Positions 31,630 through 46,877 of a DNA stretch of 64,000 bases are shown one piece after another; within the stretch, counting starts at the first letter, position 1; every line of letters begins with the position of its first letter. The stretch spans positions 19 through 64,018 of the forward strand of contig JBBIMX010000004.1 in NCBI GenBank assembly GCA_037444165.1, read 5' to 3'. Below the pieces are notes generated by a model, which ran no database searches, was not told where the DNA came from, and saw only the letters and a list, made by a program, of their open reading frames with translations. The position numbers and the translations under genes are program-made. The DNA is from Deltaproteobacteria bacterium (GTDB taxonomy: Bacteria; Desulfobacterota; BSN033; UBA1163).

Positions 31630-32784
31630 ATGCGGGTCTTCGTTACAGATGGACACTTCAGGAAAACACTGGCCCTCGTTCGATCCCTTGGGGAAAAAAG
31701 GGTTTCGGTCACAGTGGGTGAGAGAACCTTTCTCAATACCTCCTTTTTCTCAAAGTACTGTTCAAATCGAGTCGTCTACCCCTCTCCCCGACGATATCCC
31801 CAACGATTTATTGAATATCTATTAACGGAAATTAGAACACATCACTATGACTGCCTCTTTCCGATGGAAGAGGAAACCCTTATCTTGATTGCAAAATATC
31901 AATCTGAGATTTCGAAACATACCTATCTCCTCATTCCTGAGCTCGAAAAGATTGAGTTTGTCCGTGATAAAGGAAAACTGATCCAATTTGCAGAAACTCA
32001 TGGGATTCCAGTGCCAAAAACTTACCCGTCCTTTTCCTCTCCTCCCCCCTCCCTTCCCATTCCAGCCGTGATCAAGCCCCGGATCAGCTCCGGTTCCTTT
32101 GGAATTCTCTATGTGAAAAAAAGGGAAGAACTTCACCCTTCCTATCAAAAGGTCCATGAGCGTTATCCATTCCCTTTGATCCAGGAATATATCCCAGACG
32201 GAGGAGGAACCTTTGGCCTCTCTGCCCTCTTTGATGAGGCCTCAAAGGTGAAGGCTGCCTTCGTTCATAAGAAGTTAAGGATGTATCCTGTTCAAGGAGG
32301 ACCAAGTACGCTGAGGGAGAGTGTAAACCATCCCCAGATTATGGAGATGGGGCTCTCCCTATTAAAAGCATTGAATTGGGTTGGGGTGGCGATGGTCGAA
32401 TTTAAGGTGGATCCAAGAGATGGGCTGCCGAAACTCATGGAGGTCAATCCCAGATTCTGGGGTTCTTTACAATTAGCCATCCTCTCCGGGATAGACTTTC
32501 CCTATTTGATTCTAAGAATGGCAAAAGGGGAAAAGATTGAGCCGGTTCTTCATTACGAAGTGGGAAGACGGTGCCGGTGGCTTCTGCTTGGGGATGTCCT
32601 TCATTTTTTAAAGAATCCCAATCGATTCAAGCTTAACCCTTCTTTCTTTCGCTTCTTTGATCCCAATACCTCTGACGATATCCTTTCAAAAAAGGACCCT
32701 TTTGCCGTCTTAGGGGCCATGGCCACCTTCCTTACCTTCCTTTATGATCCCGAAATGAAACGCTTTCTTGAAAGAAGGGGATAG
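31630..32784 (+). CDS. ATP-grasp superfamily enzyme (COG3919-like predicted carboxylate-amine ligase)
   Basis: An N-terminal pre-ATP-grasp domain and a central ATP-grasp fold (EYIPDGGG..., MVEFKVD) are present. Confidence 0.6.
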   Translation: MRVFVTDGHFRKTLALVRSLGEKRVSVTVGERTFLNTSFFSKYCSNRVVYPSPRRYPQRFIEYLLTEIRTHHYDCLFPMEEETLILIAKYQSEISKHTYLLIPELEKIEFVRDKGKLIQFAETHGIPVPKTYPSFSSPPPSLPIPAVIKPRISSGSFGILYVKKREELHPSYQKVHERYPFPLIQEYIPDGGGTFGLSALFDEASKVKAAFVHKKLRMYPVQGGPSTLRESVNHPQIMEMGLSLLKALNWVGVAMVEFKVDPRDGLPKLMEVNPRFWGSLQLAILSGIDFPYLILRMAKGEKIEPVLHYEVGRRCRWLLLGDVLHFLKNPNRFKLNPSFFRFFDPNTSDDILSKKDPFAVLGAMATFLTFLYDPEMKRFLERRG

Positions 32785-32851
32785 AAGAGATTCGATTCCC
32801 CTTGAAATTGAAGCTCGAAATAAAGAAAATGATAGAAAATGAAAAGGAACG

Positions 32852-33544
32852 GTGATGATGATCTCCAAAGAAAAAATCTGTATCCTCATCCCTGCCTATA
32901 ATGCTCAGAACACGATTGGACCTGTCCTGGAGAAAGCCTGTTCCTTGGGGTTAGATACCCTTGTCGTCAACGATGGGTCCACGGATGGGACTTCAGCAAT
33001 AGTCCAAAGCTATGGGGTGAAGCTCTTGGAACATCCCAAGAATCTTGGAAAAGGGGCATCTCTTCGGACTGGATTTCAATATCTCCTTGAGAAGAATTAT
33101 GAGTTAGTCATTACGCTCGATGCGGATGGTCAACACGATCCCTTAGAAATTCCCCTCCTTCTTAAAGCCTTTGATCGGGCGGAACCTGATCTTCTCATTG
33201 GTTCGAGAGCTGCAGAATTCGGGCAGATGCCTTTTCTTCGCCGGTTCTGGAATCGATTGGGAGTGAGGGCAGTCAGTCGCCTCTGTCACGCCGATATTAC
33301 GGATAGTCAATCAGGATTTCGAGTGATGCGAACAGAGCTGTTACGAAGGATTTCTCTCACCACAAAGGGATTTGACACCGAATTGGAACTTTTGATCAAA
33401 GCTTGCAAAATGGGGTTTCGTGTGTTATCCATTCCTGTACATTCTCAAAAATTTAATGGCCCATTTCCCAGTCATTTTAAACCCGTCAAAGACACATGGT
33501 TGGTTTGTAAATTATTTCTCAGGAGTCTCTTTTGGAAGGCATAG
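32852..33544 (+). CDS. Family 2 glycosyltransferase (DPM1-like)
   Basis: The GT-A fold motifs ILIPAYNAQNTIG, VNDGSTDGT and a DAD-type DxD motif are present. Confidence 0.8.
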   Translation: MMMISKEKICILIPAYNAQNTIGPVLEKACSLGLDTLVVNDGSTDGTSAIVQSYGVKLLEHPKNLGKGASLRTGFQYLLEKNYELVITLDADGQHDPLEIPLLLKAFDRAEPDLLIGSRAAEFGQMPFLRRFWNRLGVRAVSRLCHADITDSQSGFRVMRTELLRRISLTTKGFDTELELLIKACKMGFRVLSIPVHSQKFNGPFPSHFKPVKDTWLVCKLFLRSLFWKA

Positions 33545-33549
33545 AATAA

Positions 33550-34947
33550 ATGGATATTTATCAAAAGGCTAAACACTATTCGATCGAAAAATTTACCGTC
33601 AGTGCCTTATCCCTTCTGTCCAATGCGTCAGAGGAGCATTTGATTCGATTGACCATTCTGGCCGAAAAGATTCCCCAGAAAGAATCCTATCGGGAAAAGA
33701 TTCGCTGGATTCGAACCCTCTTTGAAACCCATCATCCTGGATTGACCTTGGCTAAAAGAGTTCTCAGCCAAACCCATCCCCTTCATCGACATAAACTGAT
33801 CTCAAACTTCATCATCAATCAACTCCTCGTGGGAACGAATCAACGAAAAGCCTTTGCGGAAAAAAGCGGGTTCTACCCACCCGATGCCATGCTCCTCAGT
33901 CCCACGATGAGATGTAACCTCCGATGTTATGGTTGTTATGCAGGGTCCTATTCAAAGCAAGAGGATCTCCCCTTGGAGATTATTGATCGACTGATAGAAG
34001 AATGCAAAGGGATGGGAATCTATTTGGTTCTGATGACCGGAGGGGAACCCTTTCTGAGGGAAGACCTTTTTGATCTCTTCGAGAAGCATGGGGACTGTCT
34101 CTTCCAAATTTATACCAATGCCACTCTTATCGATGAGAGGATGATCGAACGATTGGTTTCTCTGGGAAACGTGGTTCCAGCGATCAGCCTCGAAGGGTTC
34201 CGAGAGGAGACCGATGAAAGAAGGGGAAAAGGGCGATTTGATCAAATCCTTAAGGTGATGGATGGGCTAAGGAGGGCCGGCCTCTTCTTCGCTGTCTCCA
34301 CCACTCAGACCTCGAAAAATACAGAGGTATTGGGCAGCGAGGCTTTCGTTGACTTTTTGATTGAGAAGGGATGCATCCTCCTCTGGAATTTTCATTATGT
34401 TCCCATTGGAAAGGACCCGGATCTCAGTTTGATGGCCACCCCGGAACAGAGACAGAAGATCAGGCAACGCTTTGCGTATTTTCGGGCGACTAAACCCATG
34501 CTCTTTGTGGACTTCTGGAATGATGGTTGTCTGACCGGGGGGTGTATCGCAGCTGGGAGAAAGTACTTCCACGTCAATGCAAGAGGGGATGTTGAACCCT
34601 GTGTGTTCTGTCATTTCGCCTCGGATAATATCAAAGAAACGACCCTTTTCGAAGCCCTCAACTCACCCCTCTTCAAAGAGATCCGTAAAAGACAGCCCTT
34701 CTCGGAGAACCTCTATCGTCCCTGTCTTTTGATTGATCATCCGGAACAAGGAAGAGAGATTGCCTTAAAGCATGCCCGATACTTCACCCACCCCCAAGCC
34801 GAACAATTCTTTACCGAATTCTCTCAGGCCATTGATGCCTACGCGAAACGGTATGGTGAGATTGCCGAGAGGGCTTGGCAAGAACAGAAACAACTGAAAA
34901 ACCAACAAAGGGGTCATGGCCAAAAGGTTGCGGGTAGACATGGATGA
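33550..34947 (+). CDS. Radical SAM enzyme with a SPASM/twitch-like C-terminal Fe-S domain and an N-terminal extension of about 100 aa
   Basis: A CxxxCxxC motif (CNLRCYGCYAG) is followed by GGEPF. The C-terminal cysteine cluster GGCIAAG...CVFCHF is SPASM-like. Confidence 0.7.
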   Translation: MDIYQKAKHYSIEKFTVSALSLLSNASEEHLIRLTILAEKIPQKESYREKIRWIRTLFETHHPGLTLAKRVLSQTHPLHRHKLISNFIINQLLVGTNQRKAFAEKSGFYPPDAMLLSPTMRCNLRCYGCYAGSYSKQEDLPLEIIDRLIEECKGMGIYLVLMTGGEPFLREDLFDLFEKHGDCLFQIYTNATLIDERMIERLVSLGNVVPAISLEGFREETDERRGKGRFDQILKVMDGLRRAGLFFAVSTTQTSKNTEVLGSEAFVDFLIEKGCILLWNFHYVPIGKDPDLSLMATPEQRQKIRQRFAYFRATKPMLFVDFWNDGCLTGGCIAAGRKYFHVNARGDVEPCVFCHFASDNIKETTLFEALNSPLFKEIRKRQPFSENLYRPCLLIDHPEQGREIALKHARYFTHPQAEQFFTEFSQAIDAYAKRYGEIAERAWQEQKQLKNQQRGHGQKVAGRHG

Positions 34948-36044
34948 AAGTTACCTTTCCTCATCTTGGCACCATGCATATCTTCTGCAAGGCCATTGCA
35001 GAGACCTCCCACATCCCTTATGTCGTTCCTCCTGAGACCAGTCGCAGAACCCTTACCTTAGGCGTTCAACATTCAAACGAATGTATCTGTCTTCCTTTTA
35101 AAATCATCCTGGGGAATTTCATCGAGGCCCTGGAACGGGGGGCAGATACGATTGTCATGGTTGGAAGTGGTCCTCCCTGTCGACTGGGACTCTATGATCT
35201 GGTTCACAAAGTCATTCTCGAAGACCTTGGGCTTCCTTTTCGATGGCTGACGATCCCTCCTCGATTGACCTGGCAGGCCTTCTGGAAAAACTATGAAGAG
35301 ACAAAGGAGCTCAAAAAAGAGTTGACCTGGAAAAATATTCTTCTTTTCCCTTATGGACTCTATATGGGATGGAAGAAGATGATGGCCTGTGAGACCCTCG
35401 AGAAGCTGGCGATGAAGGTCAGGCCAAAAGAGATCCGAAAGGGAGAGACTCAGAAAAGATTAAAGAAGGCCCTCGATTGGGTGGATAAAGCTCAAACGCC
35501 AAAAAAAGTGGAGGAAGCCCTGAAGGGGGGAGAAAAACTCCTTCTAAACACGGAACAGGATCCTTCTCGAGCCGTTCTTAAAATTGCCATCGTAGGGGAA
35601 CTCTATACGGTGATGGATCCCCATATCAATCGAGGAGTCGAACAGAAATTAGGAGAATTGGGAGCAGAGGTCACCCGTTCTTCCTGGTTTTCCACCCATA
35701 TCCTCAGAAGTCTGAGAAAAAATAAAGCCAATCGACTCTCGGAGAGGATTCAGTTCCTCGAGGCTTCAAAGCTTTATCTGGGTTATGACGTGGGAGCGGA
35801 GTGTAATGTCTCGATAGGAGAAGCGATCTTAAGATCCAGAGAGGGGTATGATGGGGTCGTCCATCTCATGCCCTTTGCCTGTATGCCTGAGACTACCGCT
35901 TCCGGGATTTTAACCCGGGTGGGGAAGGATTGGAACATCCCCATCCTGACCCTTCTTCTGGATGAACAGGAAATCGAGGGCCGGATTCAAACTCTCCTTG
36001 AGGCCTTTGTGGAGATGTTGCAGTGGAAGAGAAAGGGGTCATAG
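34944..36044 (+). CDS. 2-hydroxyacyl-CoA dehydratase-like / activase-associated protein (DUF2229-type domain)
   Basis: The conserved cysteines (ECICLPF, GPPCRLG) resemble the C-terminal modules of fused CoA-substrate-specific enzyme activase proteins. The start overlaps the upstream stop as ATGA. Confidence 0.45.
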   Translation: MKVTFPHLGTMHIFCKAIAETSHIPYVVPPETSRRTLTLGVQHSNECICLPFKIILGNFIEALERGADTIVMVGSGPPCRLGLYDLVHKVILEDLGLPFRWLTIPPRLTWQAFWKNYEETKELKKELTWKNILLFPYGLYMGWKKMMACETLEKLAMKVRPKEIRKGETQKRLKKALDWVDKAQTPKKVEEALKGGEKLLLNTEQDPSRAVLKIAIVGELYTVMDPHINRGVEQKLGELGAEVTRSSWFSTHILRSLRKNKANRLSERIQFLEASKLYLGYDVGAECNVSIGEAILRSREGYDGVVHLMPFACMPETTASGILTRVGKDWNIPILTLLLDEQEIEGRIQTLLEAFVEMLQWKRKGS

Positions 36045-37042: not shown

Positions 37043-37044
37043 CG

Positions 37045-37986
37045 ATGGGACTTTATTTAGGAATTGATGTAGGGTCGATCACCACAAAAATGGCCGTCCT
37101 CAATGAGCAGGATGAGGTTTTAGCCCATGTCTATCTTCGAAACAATGGCCGACCCCTTGAAGCGATAAAGAAGGGACTCGAGCAGATTGAGTCTCAACTG
37201 GGAGTCCTTTCAGGGGTGGAGGGGGTGGCCACCACTGGCAGTGCTCGACATCTTGCAGCCTATCTGATCGGGGCCGATCTGATCAAGAATGAAATTACCG
37301 CCCATGCCATCGCTGTGATTGAATCTTTTCCAGAAGCCAAAACGATCATGGAGATTGGAGGACAGGATTCGAAGGTCATCCTCTTGAGGGAAGGGGTGGT
37401 GGTTGACTTTGCAATGAATACGGTCTGCGCGGCAGGGACAGGTTCGTTCCTGGATCAACAGGCCTCCCGGTTAGGAATTTCTATCGAAGAATTTGGCCGT
37501 TTAGCTCTTCGGGCAAAACACCCTGTCCGGATTGCAGGGCGATGTACGGTCTTTGCGGAAACCGATATGATTCACAAACAGCAGATCGGCCATGCGATGG
37601 AGGATATCCTCGCAGGACTGTGTGACTCTCTGGTGAAGAACTATTTGAATAATGTGTGTCGAGGAAAGGAGATCCTCCCTCCTGTGGTCTTTCAGGGAGG
37701 GGTAGCGGCGAATCCCGGGATACGCCAAGCCCTTGAGAAAGAACTGGGATTTGAACTGATCCTTCCAGAGTATTATGGGGTCATGGGAGCCATTGGAGCG
37801 GCCAAGCTCGTCAAACGGAGCAAACCCCAAAAGACACGATTCAAAGGATTTGAATGGTCTCGAAAACCCTGTCAAACTCGGGGCTTTGAATGTAACGAAT
37901 GCGGAAATCAGTGCGAGGTCATCCAACTCTGGGTGGACGATGAAGTGGTCGCCTCCTGGGGCGATCTCTGTGAGAGATATCGATGA
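37045..37986 (+). CDS. CoA-substrate-specific enzyme activase (BadF/BadG/BcrA/BcrD ATPase family, HgdC-like)
   Basis: The ASKHA fold N-terminus (LGIDVGSITTKMAV) and the AMNTVCAAGTGSFLD motif, with the cluster-bridging Cys, are present. The C-terminus is Cys-rich. Confidence 0.75.
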   Translation: MGLYLGIDVGSITTKMAVLNEQDEVLAHVYLRNNGRPLEAIKKGLEQIESQLGVLSGVEGVATTGSARHLAAYLIGADLIKNEITAHAIAVIESFPEAKTIMEIGGQDSKVILLREGVVVDFAMNTVCAAGTGSFLDQQASRLGISIEEFGRLALRAKHPVRIAGRCTVFAETDMIHKQQIGHAMEDILAGLCDSLVKNYLNNVCRGKEILPPVVFQGGVAANPGIRQALEKELGFELILPEYYGVMGAIGAAKLVKRSKPQKTRFKGFEWSRKPCQTRGFECNECGNQCEVIQLWVDDEVVASWGDLCERYR

Positions 37987-39353
37987 AGATTCTGATGATT
38001 AATCCCGCGCCCATCGGAACATTGAAAGCAACGGGTGTGCTCTTTCCACCCCTTGGTCTTCTTTACGTCGCTGCCGTTGCTGAAAAAGAAGGCCATGAGG
38101 TGGAGGTCGTGGATCTGGCTCTTCAAAAGAAGGGAGAAAAGATTGATTTTAAAAGGTATGAGATTGTAGGAATCTCTACGGACACGACCCGGCATCGCCA
38201 GGCTCTCCAATTGGCTAAGAGGGCGAAAAGAGAAGGCTGCACGGTAATCATGGGAGGCCCTCACCCGACCTATGTGGACAAAGAGATTCTCTCCACCGAA
38301 ATGGTCGATTTTATTGTTCGAGGAGAGGGAGAAGTCACTTTCTCGGAATTGATTTCAACTTTAAATCGGGAAAAGGGCAAGTTGGATTCCGTACAGGGGA
38401 TCAGTTTTTTATCCAAAGGCGAAATCCTTCGAACCCCCAGCCGCCCCTTTATTGAGAATCTCGATGAACTCCCCTTCCCTGCCAGGCATCTGGTTCCGAT
38501 GGAGAAGTACCGGCGAACAAAAATGGGAGACCGGGAGGTCACTCCTATCCTGACCAGTCGGGGGTGTCCATTTCAGTGCACCTTTTGTGCCTCATCCCAT
38601 TTTTTTGGAACGAAGGTCAGGCTTCGGAGTCCTGCATCGGTATTAAAGGAGCTCGAAGAACTCTATCATCGATACTCCTTTCAGGCCGTTGCCTTTGTGG
38701 ATGATACCTTCACTCTCTTTCCGGATAGGGTGATCGAAATTGGTAAAGGAATTCTGGAAAGAGGGATGAACCTCTGGTGGTGGTGTCTTTCGAGAGCGGA
38801 CCTTCTCATTCGAAACGAAGAGATGATTCAATGGATGGTTCGGTCAGGGGCGAAATCGGTCTTCATTGGAGTTGAGTCGGCCAATCCAAAGACCCTTGAG
38901 AGTCTGAAAAAAAGGATCGATCGAAACACCACGACTCGGGCTGTTGAAATGCTGAAACGATATGGCCTCGAGATCCATGCCTCTTATATCTTAGGCGGAC
39001 TCGATGAGACGGCTCGGGCAATTCATGAAACGATCCGATTGGCAAAAGAACTGGACACGAATGTGGCCCAATTTTCCATCCTTACCCCCTATCCAGGGAC
39101 CCTCCTCTATGAGCAGTTGAAGGATCGGATCTTCAGGTGGAGAGCTCCATGGTCATTTTTCGACATGCAACATCTGGTCTTCAAACACGACCATCTCTCC
39201 TTCATTCGGATGGAATGGCTTTTGATGAAGGCTCATCTTCTCTACTATCTGCGATCAAAGAAAGGGATTCGTGATCTCTGGCATCATATTAAAAAACACC
39301 GGATTACCCTTCGAACCTTCTTTCAATTTCTTAAAGAATACTTCTGGGGATAA
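37983..39353 (+). CDS. Cobalamin-binding (class B) radical SAM enzyme, paralog 1
   Basis: An N-terminal B12-binding Rossmann domain (MKILMINPAP...GHEVEVVDLA) is followed by a radical SAM core (RGCPFQCTFCAS). Confidence 0.8.
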   Translation: MKILMINPAPIGTLKATGVLFPPLGLLYVAAVAEKEGHEVEVVDLALQKKGEKIDFKRYEIVGISTDTTRHRQALQLAKRAKREGCTVIMGGPHPTYVDKEILSTEMVDFIVRGEGEVTFSELISTLNREKGKLDSVQGISFLSKGEILRTPSRPFIENLDELPFPARHLVPMEKYRRTKMGDREVTPILTSRGCPFQCTFCASSHFFGTKVRLRSPASVLKELEELYHRYSFQAVAFVDDTFTLFPDRVIEIGKGILERGMNLWWWCLSRADLLIRNEEMIQWMVRSGAKSVFIGVESANPKTLESLKKRIDRNTTTRAVEMLKRYGLEIHASYILGGLDETARAIHETIRLAKELDTNVAQFSILTPYPGTLLYEQLKDRIFRWRAPWSFFDMQHLVFKHDHLSFIRMEWLLMKAHLLYYLRSKKGIRDLWHHIKKHRITLRTFFQFLKEYFWG

Positions 39354-39355
39354 AG

Positions 39356-40270
39356 ATGGAGAATCGAGATCGTCTCTCTACCTACCGATTTCTCTCCCTC
39401 TTTCTCTTCCAATTCTTCTCTACCCTTATCCCCCGTTCCATGCAGAAGTTCTTCAGTGTCGTCGTAGGAGATCTCTTCTATTTATTGATGCCCAAGACAA
39501 GGACTTCTGTTCGAAAGAATATCGAAGGGATCAGCCAAGGAAGATGGGCGAAAGGAAAGATTGAAACCTATACCCGTAAAACTTTTCAGAACTATGGACA
39601 GTATCTCTTAGATTATATGGTCATGCATCGACTCTCTCCTTCTCATAAAGACCGGTGGGTGGAAGAAGAGATTGGAGGTCACTATATGATAGAAGCCCTC
39701 CAGAGAGGAAAAGGGGTGATCTGTATCACTCCTCATCTTGGAAACTGGGAGCTGGGAGGACTCCTCTTTTCCTTTAAAGGAGGAAAACTCAATGTCCTTA
39801 CCCTGGACGAAGAAGATCGAGGAATTAAATCTTATCGTGAAGAGATGCGAAGAAGATGGGGGATTCGAAACATCTATATTCACCCCGGAGACGATTCTCC
39901 TCTGGCCACCCTCGAAGCGGTTCAAGCATTGAGGCGAAATGAGATTGTGGCCATGTTGGGAGATCGGATCGAAACTCAGAGGACGATGGAGTTGGATTTC
40001 TTTGGTAAGAAAACCCCTTTCCCCATTGGAGCAGCCTTGATGGCCATGACCACAGGGGCTGCGGTCCTCCCGGTCTTTGTCGTCATGGAAAGGAATCGAA
40101 AATATCGAGGGATCATCGAATCCCCTGTCTATTTTGATTCCTCTTCTCGAGAGGAACGCGAATCCATCCTGAGAAAAGGGATGGAAGAGATCGTGAAAAA
40201 ATTTGAATCCTATATCGAAAAATATCCTGATCAATGGTATAATTTTTATTCTTATTGGAACGATTCCTGA
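39356..40270 (+). CDS. LpxL/HtrB-family lysophospholipid (lipid A-type) acyltransferase
   Basis: The HX4D-type motif ITPHLGNWELGG is present, with an N-terminal TM anchor. It is in the LPLAT_LABLAT-like family. Confidence 0.75.
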   Translation: MENRDRLSTYRFLSLFLFQFFSTLIPRSMQKFFSVVVGDLFYLLMPKTRTSVRKNIEGISQGRWAKGKIETYTRKTFQNYGQYLLDYMVMHRLSPSHKDRWVEEEIGGHYMIEALQRGKGVICITPHLGNWELGGLLFSFKGGKLNVLTLDEEDRGIKSYREEMRRRWGIRNIYIHPGDDSPLATLEAVQALRRNEIVAMLGDRIETQRTMELDFFGKKTPFPIGAALMAMTTGAAVLPVFVVMERNRKYRGIIESPVYFDSSSREERESILRKGMEEIVKKFESYIEKYPDQWYNFYSYWNDS

Positions 40271-40295
40271 GATCGATAAAAAGAGGGAGTTTCCA

Positions 40296-40565
40296 ATGAC
40301 ACCAAAGGATGAGATGATCGAAAAGATGAAACGACTCATTATTACGAGGTTAAAGCTGGTGGAGATGACCCCCGAAATGATTGACCCAGAGGCTCCCCTC
40401 TTCGGAGAGGGACTTGGACTGGATTCCATCGATGCCCTTGAGTTGGTATTAGGTTTGGAAAAAGAGTTTGGTGTCATGATCCCGGATGCGGAGGTGGGTA
40501 AAAAGGTCTTCCAATCGGTAAGAACGATGGCCGAGTATGTTTTAGACCATCAGCTCAAAGGTTAA
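40296..40565 (+). CDS. Acyl carrier protein
   Basis: The phosphopantetheine attachment motif GLGLDSIDALELV is present in a helical bundle of about 90 aa. The start is taken at MTPKDE. Confidence 0.8.
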   Translation: MTPKDEMIEKMKRLIITRLKLVEMTPEMIDPEAPLFGEGLGLDSIDALELVLGLEKEFGVMIPDAEVGKKVFQSVRTMAEYVLDHQLKG

Positions 40566-40569
40566 AGAG

Positions 40570-41502
40570 ATGGAAGCCAAAAACAAAATTGCCTTCTGTT
40601 TCCCAGGACAAATTCAGGAAAGACCCATTCTTTCGAAGTACCACCCCCTCTCTGAAGACCCTTTCTTCCGAGATTGGGTAGATCGGGCAGAGAAGGAAAC
40701 TGGAATAGAATTATGGAAATTTATGAACGAGGAGACGGAGGGAGAGCAAGTCCCTCTCAAATTACAGCTCACCACCTATCTCTTCTCGGTGATCTATTTT
40801 CAACGACTTTTAGAGAAAGGATGGACTCCTGAAATCCTCACCGAACATAGCATGGGAATCTATGCAGCGCTCACCGCTTCCGAGGCCATCACCTTTGAAG
40901 AAGGACTCTTTATCACCCATTCCATTGGGAGACTTCTCGAGGAAGAAGGGGCTCTCTGCCCCGGGATGATGGCAAGCATCATCGGTCTTCCTCTTGAAGA
41001 AATCCAGAAGATTATCAGTACCCTTGATGGATATCGCTTAGCCATTGCCAATTACAATGGATCAATGCATTTTGTGATTTCAGGAGAGGAGGAGGGGGTT
41101 CAAAAAGCGATGGAGCTTGCCCTGGCCCGGAAGGCCCTTTCAGTGAGTAAACTTTCTTTCAACACGGCTCTTCACTCTCCTCCCCTGAGCCATCTCAGGG
41201 GAAAGATCCGGGATCTGTTGAGGGAGATTGAAGTCCGTCCATTCCGGTATCCTATTCTTAATCACTGGACCATCCAACCACTCAACCGGGGGGAAGTGAA
41301 AGACTTTCTTTCCGAAGAGATTGCCCGCCCGGTTTACTGGGTTCGATGTGTGGAGAAATGTATTCAGGAAGGGGTTCGTCAGTTCGTCGAAGTCGGCAAA
41401 GAATCGACCCTGACGAAACTGATTCGTTGGATTGATCGGGAGGTCGAGGCCCTCTCGGCTGAGGAACTCCTCTTCTCGGGGGGACGAGATGGGATCCTAT
41501 GA
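40570..41502 (+). CDS. ACP S-malonyltransferase-like acyltransferase (FabD family)
   Basis: The sequences IAFCFPGQ and the nucleophile motif EHSMGIYAAL (GHSxG-like) are present. Length is 310 aa. Confidence 0.7.
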   Translation: MEAKNKIAFCFPGQIQERPILSKYHPLSEDPFFRDWVDRAEKETGIELWKFMNEETEGEQVPLKLQLTTYLFSVIYFQRLLEKGWTPEILTEHSMGIYAALTASEAITFEEGLFITHSIGRLLEEEGALCPGMMASIIGLPLEEIQKIISTLDGYRLAIANYNGSMHFVISGEEEGVQKAMELALARKALSVSKLSFNTALHSPPLSHLRGKIRDLLREIEVRPFRYPILNHWTIQPLNRGEVKDFLSEEIARPVYWVRCVEKCIQEGVRQFVEVGKESTLTKLIRWIDREVEALSAEELLFSGGRDGIL

Positions 41503-41911
41503 AACTCGATTCCGGGTTCGTTTTCATGAGGTCGATGCTTATGGAATGGTCTGGCATGGTCATTTTGTGGCCTGGTTTGAAATGGGTCGAAATGAATTGA
41601 CTGAAAAATTTGGCTTGGGCCCCTTTCAACTCAAGGGAAGAGGGCTCTTGGCTCCGGTGGTCCATCTTTCCTGTGAATTCAAACAACCTGCTCGGTTCGG
41701 AGAGACCCTTCTCCTTCAAACGAGTATGGAAAGGACGGAAGTGGCCAAGTTAATCTTTCATTATCGAATCCTCCACCAAGGAGAAGAAAAGATAGTGGCG
41801 ACAGGATCGACGACCCATGTGTTGACCGATCTCAATGGAAATCTCCTTTACCGGATCCCTCCCGACCTCCTTAAAAAGATAGAAGAGATGATGAAATTTT
41901 TAGGGGTATAG
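41489..41911 (+). CDS. Hotdog-fold acyl-CoA/acyl-ACP thioesterase (4HBT/YbgC family)
   Basis: The sequence VRFHEVDAYGMVWHGHFVAWFEMGRNE is typical of 4HBT. The start overlaps the upstream stop. Confidence 0.7.
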   Translation: MGSYETRFRVRFHEVDAYGMVWHGHFVAWFEMGRNELTEKFGLGPFQLKGRGLLAPVVHLSCEFKQPARFGETLLLQTSMERTEVAKLIFHYRILHQGEEKIVATGSTTHVLTDLNGNLLYRIPPDLLKKIEEMMKFLGV

Positions 41912-41912
41912 G

Positions 41913-43349
41913 ATGAAGGTTTTATTGATCGATCCTCCCCATCGAATCTTCCCTGGGTTAAGAATGTGGGCTCCTTCCTTTGGTCTTCTCCAACTCTCCG
42001 CCTATCTGGAAGCCGAGGGAGTGAGCGTTCAAATCATAGATGGAACCACTCTTCGAGAACCCTGGAAAGAGCTTCAAGAACAGATCGTCTCCTCAAAAGC
42101 CGATGTGATTGGAATCACCTGTACAGCTACCTGTCTATCTCCCGAAGCGATTCAGACGATTTATCTTTCACGAAGACTTTCTCCTCGATCCATCCTCGTG
42201 GGAGGAGGAAGTCACTTCACCCTGATGGCCAAAACCATTCTCGAGGAGGTTCCCGATCTGGACTACATTGTTCTGGGGGAAGGAGAGATCGCCTTTCTTC
42301 AACTTCTCAAAAGCCTTTCCAATGGAAAAAATGGAAGAGAGGTGAGGGGAATCGCCTATCGGGAAGATGGAAGGGTGATTCTCAATGAAAGACAGCCATT
42401 GATTACTCCTCTGGATGGTCTTCCTCTTCCAGCCTATCATCTCATCGATGTCGAGAGCGAAGCCTACTACTGGCATGGAATGGGTCGAAGGGCCTTTGGA
42501 GTGTCCACCAGTCGGGGATGTGGGGATCACTGTAGCTACTGTTCCGAGACAAAATTTTGGGAAGGGGTCTGGAGGGGAAGAAGCGGGAAGAAGGTCGTCG
42601 AGGAGATCTCCTTCCTTTATCGAAAATATGGAAAAAGTCTCTTTGTCTTTAATGAAAACGCCTTCAATTGGAGTCGGAAACGGCTGGAGGAGTTTCTCGA
42701 AGAGTTAGGAAAATCAGGGCTCCGGATTCATTTCTGGTTCCAATCTCGAGTGAAAGATATCCTGAGGGACGAAGATCTCCTTCCGGAAATGAAGCGCCTC
42801 GGCCTTTATGAGGTGATGTTAGGGATTGAGAGCATTCAACCCGACGTCCTACAGCGATATGAAAAAGACCAGTCTCGGGAGTTGGCTGAGAAGGCGATTG
42901 AGCTCCTTCGTCGAAATGGGATCATGGTCATGGCTAACGTCATGTTTGGGGATTGGAATGATTCGGAGGCCAATCTGAAAGAGATCTTTCGTTTTGTGAA
43001 AAAAAAGAGCGATTTCTTAGTCCTCACCATCACCACTCCTCTCCCTGGGACAAAATACTTCGAAGAGGCGGAGCGTCTGGGAAGGATAAGGGAAAAGGAC
43101 TTTGGAAAATACGACTTTATGCATCCCGTCATGGATACAAAATTTCTCTCCGCTCCTGAGGTAGAGCGACTTCAAAAGGCTTACCTTAAAAAGTATTATA
43201 CCCAACCGAGGATTCTGCTCGGAGCCTTCTTTAACCCAAACCCTTTTAAGAGAATGGCCTACCGACTCATCTTAAGATACGTCTGGGAGAATGCCACAAA
43301 GAGACCCTGGAAGCAACCCAATTGGAAAGATGACAGGCAAGAGGGATAG
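41913..43349 (+). CDS. Cobalamin-binding (class B) radical SAM enzyme, paralog 2
   Basis: B12-binding N-terminus (MKVLLIDPPHR...GVSVQIIDG). The radical SAM motif is RGCGDHCSYCSE. Confidence 0.8.
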   Translation: MKVLLIDPPHRIFPGLRMWAPSFGLLQLSAYLEAEGVSVQIIDGTTLREPWKELQEQIVSSKADVIGITCTATCLSPEAIQTIYLSRRLSPRSILVGGGSHFTLMAKTILEEVPDLDYIVLGEGEIAFLQLLKSLSNGKNGREVRGIAYREDGRVILNERQPLITPLDGLPLPAYHLIDVESEAYYWHGMGRRAFGVSTSRGCGDHCSYCSETKFWEGVWRGRSGKKVVEEISFLYRKYGKSLFVFNENAFNWSRKRLEEFLEELGKSGLRIHFWFQSRVKDILRDEDLLPEMKRLGLYEVMLGIESIQPDVLQRYEKDQSRELAEKAIELLRRNGIMVMANVMFGDWNDSEANLKEIFRFVKKKSDFLVLTITTPLPGTKYFEEAERLGRIREKDFGKYDFMHPVMDTKFLSAPEVERLQKAYLKKYYTQPRILLGAFFNPNPFKRMAYRLILRYVWENATKRPWKQPNWKDDRQEG

Positions 43350-43352
43350 AGA

Positions 43353-44696
43353 TTGAAATCAAAATCCACTCCCCACTCTCCGAATTCGAAAAAGGTCCTT
43401 CTTATCTTTCCGAGGGAGAAGGGGATCAAATTTTCAAACGATACCTTCTATCCCTTTCCCATGATTGGCCTTCCTCTTCTGGCCGCCTATTTTCCCAACA
43501 CCTACGAGGTCAAAATTCTAAACGAAGCCATCGAACCGATCGATTTCGATACGGAAGTGGATCTGGTCGGAATCACTGCCCTTACCTGTATAGCGCACCG
43601 GGCCTATGAAGTGGCGGATCGGTTCCGAAGAAGAGGGGTAAAGGTCATTTTAGGAGGGGTTCACCCAAGCATTCAACCTGAGGAGGCAAAGGAACACGCC
43701 GATTCTGTGGTGATTGGGGAAGCAGAAGGGGTCCTTGGAGAGATCCTCAAAGACTTTGAAGCCGGGGCCCTTAAACCTTTTTATCAGAATCATTCCCTGT
43801 GTGACTTAAGAGGACTCCCCTTGCCGAGAAGGGATCTTCTGAGTAAACGGTACAGCCCCTTGTTTAAGGCGATCGAAACCACCCGGGGCTGTCCCCATCG
43901 ATGCGAATTCTGTTCGGTCCCCATTCTCAATGGGAGAAGGTATCGGATGCGACCCCTCGAGGAGGTCGATCGGGAACTCTCCCTGATCATCAAAAAGCCA
44001 AAGGAGTATCTCTTTGTTACCGATGACAACATCGTCGCCATCGAGGATTATGCCCTCGGCCTCTTTGACATCTTTAAACGGCATCAGGTGAGATGGATGG
44101 GGTTTTCTACCCTTCAGATTGCAACCAATGAGACACTTCTGCGGAAAGCGAGCGAGAGTGGGTGTCTCTCTCTCTTTATCGGATTCGAATCCCTCCTTCA
44201 AGAGAATCTCAATCACGTCTCAAAGTCCTTTGTTCACACCGAACTTCTTCCGGAGTGGATTAGGAGCATTCATGGCTATGGAATTGGCATCCATGGTTCT
44301 TTCATCTTTGGCTTTGATGGGGATGATTCAACGATCTTTCGGAAAACCGTTGAGTTTGTTCAAAAGAATCGAATCGATCTTCCCTCTTTTTCTATCCTCA
44401 CCCCTTTTCCGGGGACTCGACTCTATCAGCGGTTAGAAGAGGAAGGCCGGATCATTGACCGCAATTGGTCCCATTACGATATGAGCCATGTCGTCTTTCA
44501 ACCCAAGCAGATGACGGTCAGACAGCTTCAAGAGGGATATCTCTGGGCTCAACAGTATAGCTGTTCTCCTCGTTCGATCTTCCAACGCCTCCTCTGGAGG
44601 TGGAGAAATCACTTTTTCTTTTTTTTAATGTCAAATTTTGTCCTCCGGGGAGCCCAAATGGATGTGATTCGAAGAATAAGAAAAAGGCCCCAATAA
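43353..44696 (+). CDS. Cobalamin-binding (class B) radical SAM enzyme, paralog 3
   Basis: B12-binding N-terminus (VLLIFPREKG...). The radical SAM motif is RGCPHRCEFCSVP. Confidence 0.8.
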   Translation: MKSKSTPHSPNSKKVLLIFPREKGIKFSNDTFYPFPMIGLPLLAAYFPNTYEVKILNEAIEPIDFDTEVDLVGITALTCIAHRAYEVADRFRRRGVKVILGGVHPSIQPEEAKEHADSVVIGEAEGVLGEILKDFEAGALKPFYQNHSLCDLRGLPLPRRDLLSKRYSPLFKAIETTRGCPHRCEFCSVPILNGRRYRMRPLEEVDRELSLIIKKPKEYLFVTDDNIVAIEDYALGLFDIFKRHQVRWMGFSTLQIATNETLLRKASESGCLSLFIGFESLLQENLNHVSKSFVHTELLPEWIRSIHGYGIGIHGSFIFGFDGDDSTIFRKTVEFVQKNRIDLPSFSILTPFPGTRLYQRLEEEGRIIDRNWSHYDMSHVVFQPKQMTVRQLQEGYLWAQQYSCSPRSIFQRLLWRWRNHFFFFLMSNFVLRGAQMDVIRRIRKRPQ

Positions 44697-44700
44697 AAGG

Positions 44701-46110
44701 ATGAAGATTCTACTGATCTCTATCAATCGGGAACGAATGCCGGCTCCTGTTTTTCCTCTGGGGCTGGCCTATATCGCCCGAGCTTTAAAAGAGAGGGGAC
44801 ATCGGATAGAAGTATCGGATCTCTGTTTTTCTCAAGATCCCTCTCACGAGGTTCAAGAGGTCCTCTTTCGATTTCAACCGGATCTCATAGGACTCTCCCT
44901 GAGAAATCTTGACAATCTGACCTATCCCCACTCTCTCTCTTATCTTGATGAACTCAAAGAGGTGATCTCCATCTGTCGTCAACTCCCCTCATCAAAATTA
45001 GTCCTCGGTGGCTCAGGGTTCTCCCTCGCACCTAAGGAACTCTTCAATGAACTGGATGTGGATTTTGGGATTATTGGAGAGGGGGAGGAGATCATGGTGA
45101 AACTGGTGGAATCTCTCGAAAGGAAGGAACCCCTCCCTTTCCTCCCCTCTCTTCTCATCAAAGGGGAACCGATCCCCTCTAAAATCGAAGGGGCCAGAGC
45201 CCCGTTGAGTTTTACCCCGGAACGCTCTTTCTTCAAGAGTGAGCGTTATCTCAGGGAAGGGGGAATGCTTAATCTTCAAACCAAACGGGGTTGCCCTTTC
45301 TCTTGTATCTACTGCACGTACCCTCTTCTGGAAGGCAAAGAGGTGAGACTCCGGCAGATAGAGGAAGTCATCGAAGAGATCCGACACCTCATCCAAGACG
45401 AGGGAGCGGATTATCTCTATTTCGTTGACGACCTCTTCAATTATCCCTCTTCCTATGCCGAGCAGTTATGTCGAAAGATGGTTCGGGAAGGACTGAAGGT
45501 TCGGTGGAGCGCCTTTATCCATCCTCGCTTTCTTTCCAAAGAACTCTTAAAATGGATGAAAGAGGCGGGATGTGTGGGGATTGAATTTGGAACCGACTCG
45601 GGTTCACCCAGAATGCTTAAACAGTATCGAAAAGCCTTTTCTCAAGAAGAGATCGTCCGCTCTTCCCGAATCTGTGAGGAACTCGGGATGAATTACTGTC
45701 ATTATCTTCTGCTGGGAGGACCTGGAGAGGATGAGGAAACCATCGAAGAATCCTTTCAATTGATGGATCGGCTCAATCCGACTGCAGTCATTGCTATGTT
45801 AGGGATCCGTATCTATCCGGGAACAGAACTCCATCGACTCGCTCTTCTCGAAGGGAGGATCCAGAAAGGGACTAATCTCGCCTATCCCATTTTTTATCTC
45901 TCTCCGAAACTTGAAGGAAGATTAGAAGAGATCCTTCGTGAAAAGGCCATGGAGCGAAGACAGTGGATCGTTCCAGGTCTCGAGATCAATCTCTCCAATA
46001 CCCTGATGGAACAGATTCGACAATTTCAGATTCGAGGTCCCCTGTGGGACCTTGTAGGCAGAATGAAACGGCCAAGAATAAGACCCTTAAAAAATGACGG
46101 AAGTCATTAA
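44701..46110 (+). CDS. Cobalamin-binding (class B) radical SAM enzyme, paralog 4
   Basis: B12-binding N-terminus (MKILLISINRERMPAP...GHRIEVSDL). The radical SAM motif is RGCPFSCIYCTYP. Confidence 0.8.
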   Translation: MKILLISINRERMPAPVFPLGLAYIARALKERGHRIEVSDLCFSQDPSHEVQEVLFRFQPDLIGLSLRNLDNLTYPHSLSYLDELKEVISICRQLPSSKLVLGGSGFSLAPKELFNELDVDFGIIGEGEEIMVKLVESLERKEPLPFLPSLLIKGEPIPSKIEGARAPLSFTPERSFFKSERYLREGGMLNLQTKRGCPFSCIYCTYPLLEGKEVRLRQIEEVIEEIRHLIQDEGADYLYFVDDLFNYPSSYAEQLCRKMVREGLKVRWSAFIHPRFLSKELLKWMKEAGCVGIEFGTDSGSPRMLKQYRKAFSQEEIVRSSRICEELGMNYCHYLLLGGPGEDEETIEESFQLMDRLNPTAVIAMLGIRIYPGTELHRLALLEGRIQKGTNLAYPIFYLSPKLEGRLEEILREKAMERRQWIVPGLEINLSNTLMEQIRQFQIRGPLWDLVGRMKRPRIRPLKNDGSH

Positions 46111-46125
46111 ATCGATTGTGGGAGG

Positions 46126-46872
46126 TTGACCATGTTACTTCAAGATAAGGTGGCAATTGTGACCGGGGGAACTCGAGGGATTGGAAGGGCCATCTCTCTC
46201 CTCTTCGCAGAGGAGGGGGCAAGGGTCGTGGCTAACTTTTCGAAAAACGTGGAGGCTGCAGAGTCCTTAATTGAAGAAGCTCGGAGCAAAAAATTGACAT
46301 TAGGGCTCTTTAAGGCCGATGTGACCCAATTTGATCAAGTCAAGGAGATGGTGGAGGAGGTCTTCAGAGGATACGGAAGAATCGATATTTTAGTGAATAA
46401 TGTGGGACTCGTCCGAGACAATTTTCTGATGCTCATGAGTGATGAAGATTGGGACTCCCTCCTCAAGGCAAATCTTACAAGTCTTTTTTATTGCTGTAGG
46501 GCTGTCATTCGGAAGATGATTCCGGAGCGAAGAGGGAAAATTGTCAATCTCTCTTCCATCAGTGGTATCCTTGGAACTTCTGGTCAAACCAACTATGCAG
46601 CGACCAAAGGAGGAGTGATCGGTTTTACCAAATCCCTGGCTCGAGAATTAGGACCCTTCAATATTCAGGTCAATGCGGTGGCTCCAGGATTGATTGAATC
46701 TGAGGTGGTCTCAAAAATGCCAAAAGAAAGGGTAGAGGCCATTATTAAATCCTCAAGCCTGGGAAGGATGGGGAAACCTGAGGAAGTGGCCCAGGCGGTC
46801 CTCTTCTTGGCCTCAGATCGTTCAAGTTATATCACCGGCCAAACCCTCATCGTCGATGGGGGAATCTTATAG
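46126..46872 (+). CDS. fabG: 3-oxoacyl-ACP reductase (SDR family, FabG-like)
   Basis: The cofactor-binding motif [11 protein letters not shown] and the catalytic motifs S...NYAATK are present, with similarity over the full length. Confidence 0.85.
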
Positions 46873-46877
46873 GGAAA

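What the first reader, a model, noticed from the sequence alone, without database searches (positions are those of the whole stretch)
33550..34947. Radical SAM/SPASM-type enzyme with an uncharacterised 100 aa N-terminal domain leading the lipid operon
What the sequence shows:
- The radical SAM cluster motif is CNLRCYGCYAG.
- A C-terminal auxiliary cysteine cluster (GGCIAAG...CVFCHF) resembles the SPASM/twitch domains that carry extra Fe-S clusters.
- About 100 N-terminal residues have no recognisable motif.

Established knowledge: SPASM rSAMs commonly form cross-links such as thioethers or C-C bonds. The tetraether and membrane-spanning lipid synthases are also multi-cluster radical SAM enzymes.

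Inference: within a lipid operon this enzyme is a candidate for C-C coupling or cyclisation of acyl chains rather than peptide maturation. No precursor-peptide-like small ORF lies nearby.
Basis: partly seen in the sequence, partly recalled or inferred. Interest (0 to 1): 0.55.

Follow-up and report, generated by a model that had tools for sequence, protein, structure and literature searches.

The report
Bacterial membrane-spanning lipid synthase homolog
This gene encodes a radical SAM enzyme of the recently described Mss family, which welds two fatty-acid tails together to make membrane-spanning lipids, and here it sits in one operon with ether-bond-forming, B12-radical-SAM and fatty-acid-synthesis genes in an anaerobic Syntrophaceae bacterium.

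Summary
The ORF (33550-34947, +, 465 aa) is real and the quoted motifs are present. It is a radical SAM enzyme with a twitch-type (half-SPASM) auxiliary-cluster domain, not a full SPASM. Its conserved N-terminal ~106 residues are predicted to form a five-helix bundle.

It belongs to the bacterial membrane-spanning lipid synthase (Mss) family of Sahonero-Canavesi et al. 2022:
- It is 37% identical (E=2e-103) to T. maritima TM0824/AGL49750.1, which I infer to be Mss Tmari_0825.
- Six Clostridium members of the same family are listed by accession as Mss homologs in a 2026 supplement.

It is not a close Tes/GDGT-MAS relative. Nothing supports RiPP maturation: there is no precursor gene and no RRE.

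It does not lead the operon, because ATP-grasp and GT2 genes precede it. Its stop overlaps a split PlsA/Ger-like ether-forming system. Four B12-rSAM genes, an LpxL-like acyltransferase, ACP, FabD, a thioesterase, FabG and FabF follow.

I class the enzyme as a new member of a known kind. The operon is a plausible but unproven candidate pathway for branched, ether-linked membrane-spanning lipids in anaerobes.

The parts
33550..34947 (+). Target gene: Mss-family radical SAM enzyme, 465 aa
   Evidence: ORF. Pfam Radical_SAM and SPASM hits. 37% identity and E=2e-103 to T. maritima TM0824/AGL49750.1. Family members are listed as Mss homologs in the PMC13274423 supplement.
33550..33867 (+). N-terminal domain (residues 1-106), predicted five-helix bundle, family-specific
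   Evidence: AF2 model has pLDDT 92.3 with helices 3-23, 28-39, 45-59, 63-74 and 77-106. No Pfam, NCBIfam or PDB sequence match. Residues ~44-106 align to T. maritima Mss. N86 is invariant and N90 is conserved in 10 of the 12 subgroup representatives.
33913..33936 (+). CxxxCxxC radical SAM cluster motif (C122, C126, C129)
   Evidence: Read directly from the sequence. Invariant in all 12 subgroup representatives. GGE SAM-binding motif at G164-E166 is invariant.
34543..34725 (+). Twitch-like auxiliary [4Fe-4S] domain (residues 332-392): C332-X13-G-X4-C351 plus C392, with clade-specific C354
   Evidence: Invariant cysteines. Pfam SPASM 32.3 bits. TIGR04085 reaches only 14.1 of 27 bits and matches the first half of the profile. 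SkfB (twitch) is the best PDB profile hit, E=9e-29.
31630..32784 (+). ATP-grasp ligase, first conserved gene of the cluster in the Syntrophaceae-type loci
   Evidence: Pfam ATPgrasp_Ter and ATP-grasp_3. Conserved upstream in most Syntrophaceae-type loci.
32852..33544 (+). GT2 glycosyltransferase (DPM1/PpgS/AglJ-like), 5 bp upstream of the target
   Evidence: Pfam Glycos_transf_2, E=3.9e-27. NCBIfam similarity to AglJ and PpgS, below cut-off. Adjacent to the target in nearly all 78 genome loci. The Geobacter copy is 47% identical.
34944..36044 (+). PlsR/Ger-like subunit (DUF2229 + HGD-D); start overlaps the target's stop by 4 bp
   Evidence: Pfam PF09989 and PF06050. Overlap. These domain types define Ger (PMC13159169).
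36023..37042 (+). Second DUF2229/HGD-D subunit of the split PlsA/Ger-like system
   Evidence: Pfam DUF2229 E=4.2e-40, weak HGD-D.
37045..37986 (+). BcrAD_BadFG-type ATP-dependent activase (single 'B' domain)
   Evidence: Pfam E=2.4e-47. TIGR00241 acyl-CoA dehydratase activase scores 196.6 bits, above its 125.4 cut-off.
37983..39353 (+). B12-binding radical SAM protein 1
   Evidence: Pfam B12-binding plus Radical_SAM. Below cut-off for BchE, HpnJ, HpnR and TIGR04072.
39356..40270 (+). LpxL/PatA-type lipid acyltransferase
   Evidence: Pfam Lip_A_acyltrans E=3.5e-31. Conserved with the target in the Syntrophaceae, the Geobacteraceae, L077 and L087.
40296..40565 (+). Acyl carrier protein
   Evidence: Pfam PP-binding E=2.4e-11. 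Conserved in synteny.
40570..41502 (+). FabD-like acyltransferase
   Evidence: Pfam Acyl_transf_1. TIGR00128 fabD at 146 bits, below its 260.9 cut-off.
41489..41911 (+). Hotdog-fold thioesterase
   Evidence: Pfam 4HBT_2 and 4HBT.
41913..46110 (+). Three further B12-binding radical SAM genes (41913-43349, 43353-44696, 44701-46110)
   Evidence: Pfam B12-binding plus Radical_SAM.
46126..48095 (+). FabG-like ketoreductase (46126-46872) and FabF-like ketosynthase (46878-48095), end of the operon
   Evidence: Pfam adh_short_C2 and ketoacyl-synt. An unrelated TctC gene follows after a 77-bp gap.

Best explanation
The gene encodes a member of the bacterial membrane-spanning lipid synthase (Mss) family.

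Shown:
- It has a radical SAM core with the CxxxCxxC motif and a GGE SAM-binding motif.
- It has one twitch-type auxiliary Fe-S site built from three invariant cysteines (C332, C351, C392), plus a clade-specific C354.
- A family-specific N-terminal helical bundle and a long C-terminal helix flank the core.

Inferred mechanism, by analogy with validated Mss and with the Tes mechanism that a 2026 review postulates for Mss:
1. The radical SAM cluster cleaves SAM to give a 5'-deoxyadenosyl radical.
2. That radical abstracts a hydrogen from the omega or omega-1 carbon of one lipid acyl or alkyl tail.
3. The substrate radical is parked on, or stabilised by, the auxiliary cluster.
4. A second SAM is cleaved and activates the tail of a second lipid.
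5. The two carbons are joined in a Csp3-Csp3 bond, giving a membrane-spanning di-acid or di-alkyl chain.

Inferred pathway in this operon: the coupling is likely combined with ester-to-(vinyl)ether conversion by the translationally coupled split PlsA/Ger-like system (two DUF2229/HGD-D proteins and one activase). The four B12-radical SAM enzymes would methylate or cyclise the chain. A dedicated ACP, FabD, FabF, FabG and thioesterase set would build the chain. The LpxL-like acyltransferase, the GT2 and the ATP-grasp enzyme would transfer the acyl group and decorate the head group.
For: Family identity:
- The T. maritima MSB8 protein AAD35906.1/AGL49750.1 (482 aa) is in the same family. It aligns to the target at 37% identity over 404 residues with one gap, E=2e-103. 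That passes the published homolog criteria of E<=1e-50 and identity >=30% (PMC13159169), and length >=400 aa (bioRxiv 10.1101/2023.10.20.563219).
- Six Clostridium members of the family appear by accession in the Mss-homolog column of supplement file 3 of PMC13274423. They are the sole Mss hit listed for C. carboxidivorans and C. amazonitimonense.
- The family's taxa (Thermotogae, Clostridia, gamma and delta proteobacteria, Atribacteria, Humimicrobiia, Planctomycetota) match the published Mss distribution.
- C122, C126, C129, C332, C351, C392, H341 and D321 are invariant across 12 subgroups, including T. maritima Mss.

Context:
- The target's stop overlaps a gene carrying the domains that define Ger.
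- Mss-like/Ger-like adjacency recurs in L077 and L079 (L026 by tblastn only) and in about 20 Syntrophaceae-type loci.
- DegV fatty-acid-binding genes lie next to or one gene from distant family members.
- Mss and Ger homologs are reported to co-occur in 34 Desulfobacterota MAGs (PMC11868695).
- An auxiliary-cluster coupling mechanism is postulated for Mss (PMC13459092).
Against: - No biochemical data exist for this clade.
- The family is star-like, with about 33-49% identity between the subgroups outside the target's own clade. The target is no closer to validated Mss than to uncharacterised subgroups, so its function could have diverged.
- The identification of Tmari_0825 with AGL49750.1/TM0824 is inferred. 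It rests on the source annotation, neighbour counting from memory and the >=400 aa criterion. I never obtained the T. ethanolicus Mss sequence.
- In T. maritima, mss is not clustered with FAS, GT2 or B12-rSAM genes. Validated Mss acts on bulk phospholipids. The obligate pairing here with a GT2, an LpxL-like acyltransferase and a private ACP system suggests a specialised substrate.
- The Geobacteraceae carry the cluster without the Ger-like genes. To my knowledge, which I did not check, they are not reported to make membrane-spanning lipids.
Confidence: 0.6

Rival explanations
1. The protein is in the Mss family but does different lipid chemistry. This clade would act on a specialised ACP-derived acyl chain or acylated glycolipid made by its own operon. 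It would form an intramolecular C-C bond (ring or cross-link between two chains of one molecule) rather than dimerise two membrane lipids. This is the chemistry long proposed for 'ladderane-type' FAS + radical SAM clusters.
For: - The clade is always flanked by a GT2, an LpxL-like acyltransferase, ACP, FabD-like, thioesterase, FabG, FabF and B12-rSAM genes. Validated T. maritima mss is not.
- L087 shows the same core next to phytoene-desaturase-like genes, as in the Desulfotalea and Kuenenia clusters (PMC2649909).
- C354 is a clade-specific extra cysteine.
- B12-rSAM hits to TIGR04072 'lipid biosynthesis B12-binding/radical SAM protein' (model name rSAM_ladder_B12) reach 84-118 bits, below the cut-off.
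- 'Ladderane' BGC calls in non-anammox phyla have unknown products (PMC9902471).
Against: - The catalytic residues and all cluster ligands are the same as in validated Mss.
- No family member is known to do cyclisation.
- The Ger-like partner fits glycerolipid substrates.
Confidence: 0.25
2. The enzyme is a head-group or sugar-modifying radical SAM. It would modify the sugar, or the polyprenyl-phosphate sugar, made by the adjacent DPM1/PpgS-like GT2. Twitch enzymes such as BtrN and BlsE, and the lipid head-group enzyme Cds, act in this way.
For: - The GT2 lies 5 bp upstream and is adjacent in nearly all 78 loci.
- One distant member sits in an operon with a cis-prenyltransferase, a methyltransferase and a GT2.
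- Another has ArnA/ArnD-like neighbours.
Against: - The GT2 partners in different subfamilies are not orthologous: 25% identity over 94 residues.
- Many family members have no GT2 nearby.
- The only experimentally characterised members couple acyl tails.
Confidence: 0.07
3. The enzyme is a RiPP maturase of the SPASM/twitch class that cross-links a precursor peptide.
Against: - No precursor-sized ORF fits in gaps of -22 to +67 bp.
- The N-terminal domain is all-helical, not an RRE/PqqD-like fold.
- The neighbours are lipid genes in three or more lineages.
- No NCBIfam maturase model reaches its cut-off for any of 47 family members.
Confidence: 0.02
4. The enzyme is a bacterial Tes/GDGT-MAS orthologue.
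Against: - A single-sequence search finds no GDGT-MAS hit at E<=0.01.
- The profile match covers only core residues 115-220.
- There is no full SPASM and no sign of a rubredoxin-like site: apart from the twitch cysteines, no cysteine is conserved across the family.
- The authors state that Mss is only remotely related to Tes.
Confidence: 0.02

Closest known systems
Mss, bacterial membrane-spanning lipid synthase (T. maritima Tmari_0825; T. ethanolicus WP_129545148.1; Sahonero-Canavesi et al. 2022, PMC13159169)
   Same: - Same protein family and length class, with the same invariant radical SAM and auxiliary cysteines.
- 37% identity and E=2e-103 to the T. maritima protein.
- Anaerobic host.
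- Co-occurs with a Ger/PlsA-like system.
   Different: - About 35% identity, so it is a separate clade.
- It is embedded in a 16-gene operon with a GT2, an ATP-grasp, four B12-rSAM genes, a private ACP/FAS set and an LpxL-like acyltransferase. It is physically coupled to Ger-like genes. In T. maritima, mss (Tmari_0825) and ger (Tmari_0479) lie far apart.
- It has an extra clade-specific Cys354.
- Its activity is untested.
Ger / PlsA-PlsR (glycerol ester reductase / plasmalogen synthase), for the neighbouring genes at 34944-37986
   Same: The same three Pfam domains that define Ger are present: BcrAD_BadFG, DUF2229 and HGD-D.
   Different: The system is split into three polypeptides with a single activase domain per chain. 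Ger is one fused BBDHDDH protein. A fused 1407-aa version lies beside the cluster in L079. Sequence alone cannot tell alkyl-ether from vinyl-ether formation.
Tes / GDGT-MAS (archaeal tetraether synthase, PDB 7TOL/7TOM)
   Same: Radical SAM enzyme with auxiliary Fe-S chemistry that couples two lipid tails. It is the mechanistic template postulated for Mss.
   Different: The homology is only remote. Tes is a full SPASM enzyme with three clusters plus a rubredoxin-like iron, features not found here.
SkfB and other twitch-domain radical SAM enzymes (PDB 6EFN)
   Different: SkfB is a peptide thioether maturase with a peptide-binding N-terminus. The target has a helical N-terminal bundle and a lipid gene context.
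'Ladderane-type' extended FASII + radical SAM clusters (Rattray et al. 2009, PMC2649909; antiSMASH 'ladderane' calls, PMC9902471)
   Same: FabF, FabG and ACP occur with several radical SAM/B12 genes and a glycosyltransferase. Rattray et al. noted such clusters in Geobacter, Pelobacter and Desulfotalea.
   Different: No ladderane lipids are known outside anammox bacteria. Those papers did not assign the twitch radical SAM gene to the Mss family. I did not compare directly with the Kuenenia genes.

Membership tests
Radical SAM superfamily (PF04055) | CxxxCxxC cluster motif and a Pfam score above the gathering threshold | tested here: met
   C122/C126/C129 are present. PF04055 scores 85.4 bits against a cut-off of 29.5. 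The motif is invariant across the family.
Radical SAM superfamily (PF04055) | GGE-type SAM-binding motif | tested here: met
   G164, G165 and E166 are invariant in 47 sequences.
SPASM domain (TIGR04085 / seven-Cys motif, two auxiliary clusters) | CX9-15GX4C ... CX2CX5CX3C ... C motif and a TIGR04085 score above cut-off | tested here: not met
   Only C332-X13-G-X4-C351 and C392 are conserved, and there is no CX2CX5CX3C block. TIGR04085 scores 14.1 bits against 27 and matches profile positions 3-50 of 93 only. Pfam SPASM passes at 32.3 against 21.5, but that reflects the first half only.
Twitch domain radical SAM | Truncated SPASM that binds one auxiliary cluster | tested here: met
   The three-Cys pattern above. 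The best PDB profile hit is the twitch enzyme SkfB. The beta-hairpin at 339-349 comes after the core in the AF2 model. Cluster content itself cannot be tested here.
Mss (bacterial membrane-spanning lipid synthase) | Homology to a validated Mss at E<=1e-50 and identity >=30% (PMC13159169) | tested here: met
   37% identity over 404 aa, E=2e-103, to T. maritima AAD35906.1/AGL49750.1. Caveat: equating this protein with Tmari_0825 is inferred.
Mss (bacterial membrane-spanning lipid synthase) | Length >=400 aa (criterion of Garcia et al.) | tested here: met
   465 aa. Criterion quoted.
Mss (bacterial membrane-spanning lipid synthase) | Same family as proteins that the authors themselves list as Mss homologs | tested here: met
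   Clostridium family members WP_012104062.1, WP_013236887.1, WP_023162539.1, WP_027623630.1, WP_007064237.1 and WP_032121266.1 are in the Mss column of PMC13274423 supplement file 3. The representative of that Clostridium subgroup, P0147, matches the target at E=9e-99, and the six listed proteins are 59-63% identical to P0147.
Mss (bacterial membrane-spanning lipid synthase) | Direct similarity to T. ethanolicus Mss WP_129545148.1 | not tested
   The sequence could not be obtained with the tools. No supplements are held for PMC13159169.
Mss (bacterial membrane-spanning lipid synthase) | Forms diabolic or iso-diabolic-type diacids when expressed anaerobically | not testable with these tools
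   Requires heterologous expression and GC-MS, as in PMC13159169.
Tes / GDGT-MAS | Close sequence or fold relationship to archaeal Tes | tested here: not met
RiPP-maturing radical SAM/SPASM enzymes | N-terminal RRE (PqqD-like, with a beta-sheet) and a neighbouring precursor peptide gene | tested here: not met
   The N-terminal domain is all-helical. No small ORF lies in the operon. The neighbours are lipid genes.
Ger / PlsA-PlsR (for genes 34944-37986) | BcrAD_BadFG activation, DUF2229 and HGD-D domains | tested here: met
   All three Pfam domains are present across the three genes.
Ger / PlsA-PlsR (for genes 34944-37986) | Two fused activation domains followed by one reduction domain (BBD), conserved in confirmed alkyl-ether producers | tested here: not met
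   There is a single activase domain on its own 313-aa polypeptide. It may act as a homodimer, which is an inference. Fused BBD proteins occur beside the cluster in L079.

The most novel reading that the evidence does not exclude
The 16-gene operon (31630-48095) would be a self-contained pathway for methyl-branched or cyclised, ether-linked, membrane-spanning lipids (brGDGT-like or 'overly branched' GDGT-like) in strictly anaerobic Syntrophaceae.

In this reading:
- The Mss-like enzyme makes the tail-to-tail bond.
- The split Ger-like system makes the ether bonds.
- The four B12-radical SAM enzymes install the extra methyl groups or rings, whose enzymes are still unknown.

By extension, many 'ladderane' BGC calls in Desulfobacterota and Geobacteraceae would be membrane-spanning-lipid clusters.
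Probability: 0.3. Interest if true: 0.75.

Novelty: new member of a known kind. Interest (0 to 1): 0.45.

Why it matters
Branched GDGTs are widely used palaeoclimate proxies. Their anaerobic producers, and the enzymes that add their extra methyl groups and rings, are still unknown.

So far Mss and Ger have been linked only by co-occurrence in the same genomes. Here an Mss-family gene is translationally coupled to Ger-like genes and co-transcribed with four B12-radical SAM genes and a private fatty-acid synthase set. The arrangement recurs in about 20 MAGs from peat, soil and aquifers.

A Ger-less version of the cluster exists in cultured Geobacteraceae, so the hypothesis can be tested directly by lipidomics and genetics. 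The result also gives a concrete functional proposal for 'ladderane-type' clusters in non-anammox bacteria.

Tried and rejected
- No supplements are held for the Sci Adv Mss paper. Neither the bioRxiv version, the FEMS paper nor the Black Sea paper gives a T. maritima Mss accession.
- Searching for Tmari_082x annotations found nothing new. Tmari-to-TM numbering offsets vary, so locus numbering alone could not fix which T. maritima gene is Tmari_0825. This was resolved indirectly through the >=400 aa criterion and the Clostridium accession lists.
- The Geobacter and Pelobacter genome papers say nothing about the cluster.
- Promoter and terminator scans were at chance level.
- The RiPP maturase reading was rejected.
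- Tes orthology was rejected.
- The idea that GT2 pairing is family-wide was rejected. It is clade-specific and the GT2 partners are not orthologous.
- No NCBIfam equivalog claims any of 47 family members.
Full report
**Observation.**
The ORF at 33550-34947 (+) exists, starts with ATG and encodes 465 aa. The quoted strings are present: CNLRCYGCYAG at residues 122-132, GGCIAAG at 330-336 and CVFCHF at 351-356. Pfam finds Radical_SAM (117-246, E=6.8e-24) and SPASM (332-392, E=1.3e-7). The first ~110 residues match no Pfam or NCBIfam family and no PDB sequence. The gene is strongly conserved. There are 4627 homologs, and the top 120 clusters are at least 74% identical over nearly the full length. 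At 50% clustering there are 650 representatives below E=1e-30, and many align from residues 5-40 onward. The nearest genome record is a Syntrophaceae MAG at 97% identity.

**Anatomy.**
A 47-sequence alignment and a 12-subgroup alignment show which residues are invariant. These are C122/C126/C129, the G164-G165-E166 SAM motif, and three downstream cysteines (C332, C351, C392), plus H341 and D321. The spacing is C332-X13-G-X4-C351. There is no CX2CX5CX3C block. The auxiliary domain is therefore twitch-like, predicted to hold one cluster. C354, the second Cys of 'CVFCHF', is conserved only in the target's own clade. AlphaFold2 gives a confident model (pLDDT 92.3, pTM 0.90). It shows five N-terminal helices (3-106), the radical SAM barrel, a beta-hairpin twitch region and a long C-terminal helix at 425-455. 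The N-terminal domain has no beta-strands, so it is not a RiPP recognition element.

**Relation to solved structures.**

**Context in the window.**
The gene is third in a very compact same-strand array, with gaps of -22 to +67 bp. The order is:
- ATP-grasp
- GT2 (DPM1/PpgS-like)
- the target
- two DUF2229/HGD-D proteins
- a BcrAD_BadFG activase
- a B12-rSAM
- an LpxL/PatA-like acyltransferase
- ACP
- a FabD-like protein
- a hotdog thioesterase
- three more B12-rSAM genes
- FabG
- FabF

Unrelated Tct transporter and TCA genes follow. No small ORF could encode a precursor peptide. Promoter and terminator scans were at chance level.

**Context elsewhere.**
In 78 genome loci the GT2-target pair is almost always adjacent.
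- Syntrophaceae-type loci keep the whole order.
- The Geobacteraceae, including cultured G. argillaceus, O. japonica, T. thiogenes and G. luticola, keep the GT2, target, acyltransferase, ACP, B12-rSAM, FabD, thioesterase, FabG and FabF genes but lack the three Ger-like genes.
- A third group shares only the ATP-grasp, GT2, target and first HGD-D genes.

More distant members (33-48% identical) show other lipid-related neighbours:
- GT, B12-rSAM and LpxL-like genes precede the rSAM, next to phytoene-desaturase-like and lipid A/BamA genes, in L087.
- DegV fatty-acid-binding genes lie close upstream in L082/L083 and L085.
- L082 has a cis-prenyltransferase, methyltransferase, GT2 and patatin operon.
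- Others stand alone.

**Identification as Mss family.**
Sahonero-Canavesi et al. (PMC13159169) showed that Mss from T. maritima (Tmari_0825) and T. ethanolicus (WP_129545148.1) is a radical SAM enzyme. It couples two fatty-acid tails to form diabolic or iso-diabolic acids, works only anaerobically, and is only remotely related to Tes. The links to the target's family are as follows.
- The family includes Thermosipho (P0164) and Humimicrobiaceae proteins.
- It includes all sampled Thermotogales genera, among them T. maritima MSB8 AAD35906.1/AGL49750.1, annotated 'AstB/chuR-related', 482 aa.
- The target aligns to that protein at 37% identity over 404 residues with one gap, E=2e-103. That passes the published homolog thresholds.
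- A second, 323-aa rSAM/SPASM gene lies next to it in Thermotoga. It is only 26% identical over the core. It is also excluded by the >=400 aa criterion that Garcia et al. used for Mss homologs. Those authors note that bacterial gms genes cluster with mss.
- Independently, six Clostridium members of the family are listed by accession in the Mss-homolog column of the PMC13274423 supplement, beside Ger homologs. For two species they are the only Mss hit.

The equation of Tmari_0825 with AGL49750.1 remains an inference, and I could not obtain the T. ethanolicus sequence. Family identity itself is well supported.

**The neighbours as a Ger-like system.**
Ger is defined by BcrAD_BadFG (B), DUF2229 (D) and HGD-D (H) domains in the order BBDHDDH. 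Genes 34944-37986 carry these three domains as separate polypeptides, and the first overlaps the target's stop codon. In L077 the rSAM is followed by an activase and four DUF2229/HGD-D proteins. In L079 a fused 1407-aa BBD protein lies divergently beside the cluster. The literature I could search reports only genome-level co-occurrence of Mss and Ger, for example in 34 Desulfobacterota MAGs. It does not report operonic linkage.

**Mechanism.**
The cluster-binding residues and the fold are shown. The rest is inferred. SAM cleavage at the radical SAM cluster would abstract a hydrogen from a tail carbon. The auxiliary cluster would stabilise the first radical. A second SAM would activate the second tail, and a Csp3-Csp3 bond would form. 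This is demonstrated for Tes and postulated for Mss. The helical N- and C-terminal elements probably form the lipid-binding cap, which is also an inference. The operon suggests that the substrate is a specialised lipid, built on a private ACP, methylated or cyclised by B12-rSAM enzymes, transferred by an LpxL-like acyltransferase, glycosylated, and converted to an ether.

**Rivals.**
- The same family could perform a different reaction, such as an intramolecular ring or cross-link as proposed for 'ladderane-type' clusters. This cannot be excluded, because the family is star-like at roughly 33-49% identity between subgroups outside the target's own clade, and this clade has a distinctive context.
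- Head-group modification is suggested by the GT2 pairing. That pairing is clade-specific, and the GT2 partners are not orthologous across subfamilies.
- RiPP maturation and Tes orthology are not supported.

**Verdict.**
The enzyme is a new member of the known Mss family. The operon is the more interesting object, because it physically couples Mss-like, Ger-like, B12-rSAM and FAS genes and has cultured carriers among the Geobacteraceae.

Noticed in passing
L089 4949-5920 (Thermotoga sp. Mc24, JSFH01000011.1): A 323-aa radical SAM/SPASM gene lies about 80 bp upstream of the Thermotoga Mss-family gene (6001-7449), with a TetR gene directly downstream. It may be a Gms-like bridging enzyme, because bacterial gms genes are reported to cluster with mss.
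   Followed up: partly
Proteins P0460-P0495: Mss-family homologs 46-49% identical to the Thermosipho member (P0164, itself ~73% identical to T. maritima Mss) occur in gamma-proteobacteria, including an Escherichia albertii plasmid, Klebsiella, Salmonella, E. coli, Edwardsiella and Photobacterium. Membrane-spanning lipids are not expected in these organisms.
   Followed up: no
L082 6475-12383, L083, and L085 2808-5022: DegV (fatty-acid-binding) genes lie close upstream of distant Mss-family genes in two separate subgroups: directly adjacent in L085, and separated by one unannotated 222-aa gene in L082/L083. In L082 the rSAM overlaps a UppS-like cis-prenyltransferase gene and is followed by a methyltransferase, a GT2 and a patatin lipase.
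   Followed up: partly
L087 1-17389 (JGI 3300010413 contig): A variant cluster has two phytoene-desaturase-like amine oxidases, DUF4410, a fused GT4/GT2, a B12-rSAM, an LpxL-like gene and the Mss-like gene. A HemN-like rSAM follows, then BamA, OmpH, LpxD, FabZ and LpxA. This is the Desulfotalea/Kuenenia 'ladderane-like' flavour, placed next to outer-membrane lipid genes.
   Followed up: partly
L028 12497-13765: This ORF combines an N-terminal HGD-D segment (residues 11-161) with a glutamine synthetase catalytic domain (200-418). It is either a real fusion or two genes merged by ORF calling.
   Followed up: no
L028 5826-6755, L086 7008-7934, L089 2989-3948: A PfkB-family sugar kinase recurs within a few kb of Mss-family genes in three unrelated lineages. 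This may be coincidence.
   Followed up: no
L004 (CAWGWZ010000015.1), between the activase and the first B12-rSAM gene: tblastn shows a second match to the target (80% identity) after the activase gene, which suggests a duplicated or partial extra copy of the rSAM in this MAG.
   Followed up: no
window 30470-31595: TatA/B and TatC genes lie on the same strand directly upstream, with only 34 bp between TatC and the ATP-grasp gene. They may be co-transcribed with the lipid operon.
   Followed up: no
window 48173-60784: Downstream of the operon lie a TctCBA tricarboxylate transporter, PrpD/MmgE, PrpF, an FAD oxidoreductase, a ferredoxin-like protein, aconitase, isocitrate dehydrogenase and a 2-oxoacid:ferredoxin oxidoreductase. 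This looks like an ordinary organic-acid metabolism block.
   Followed up: no
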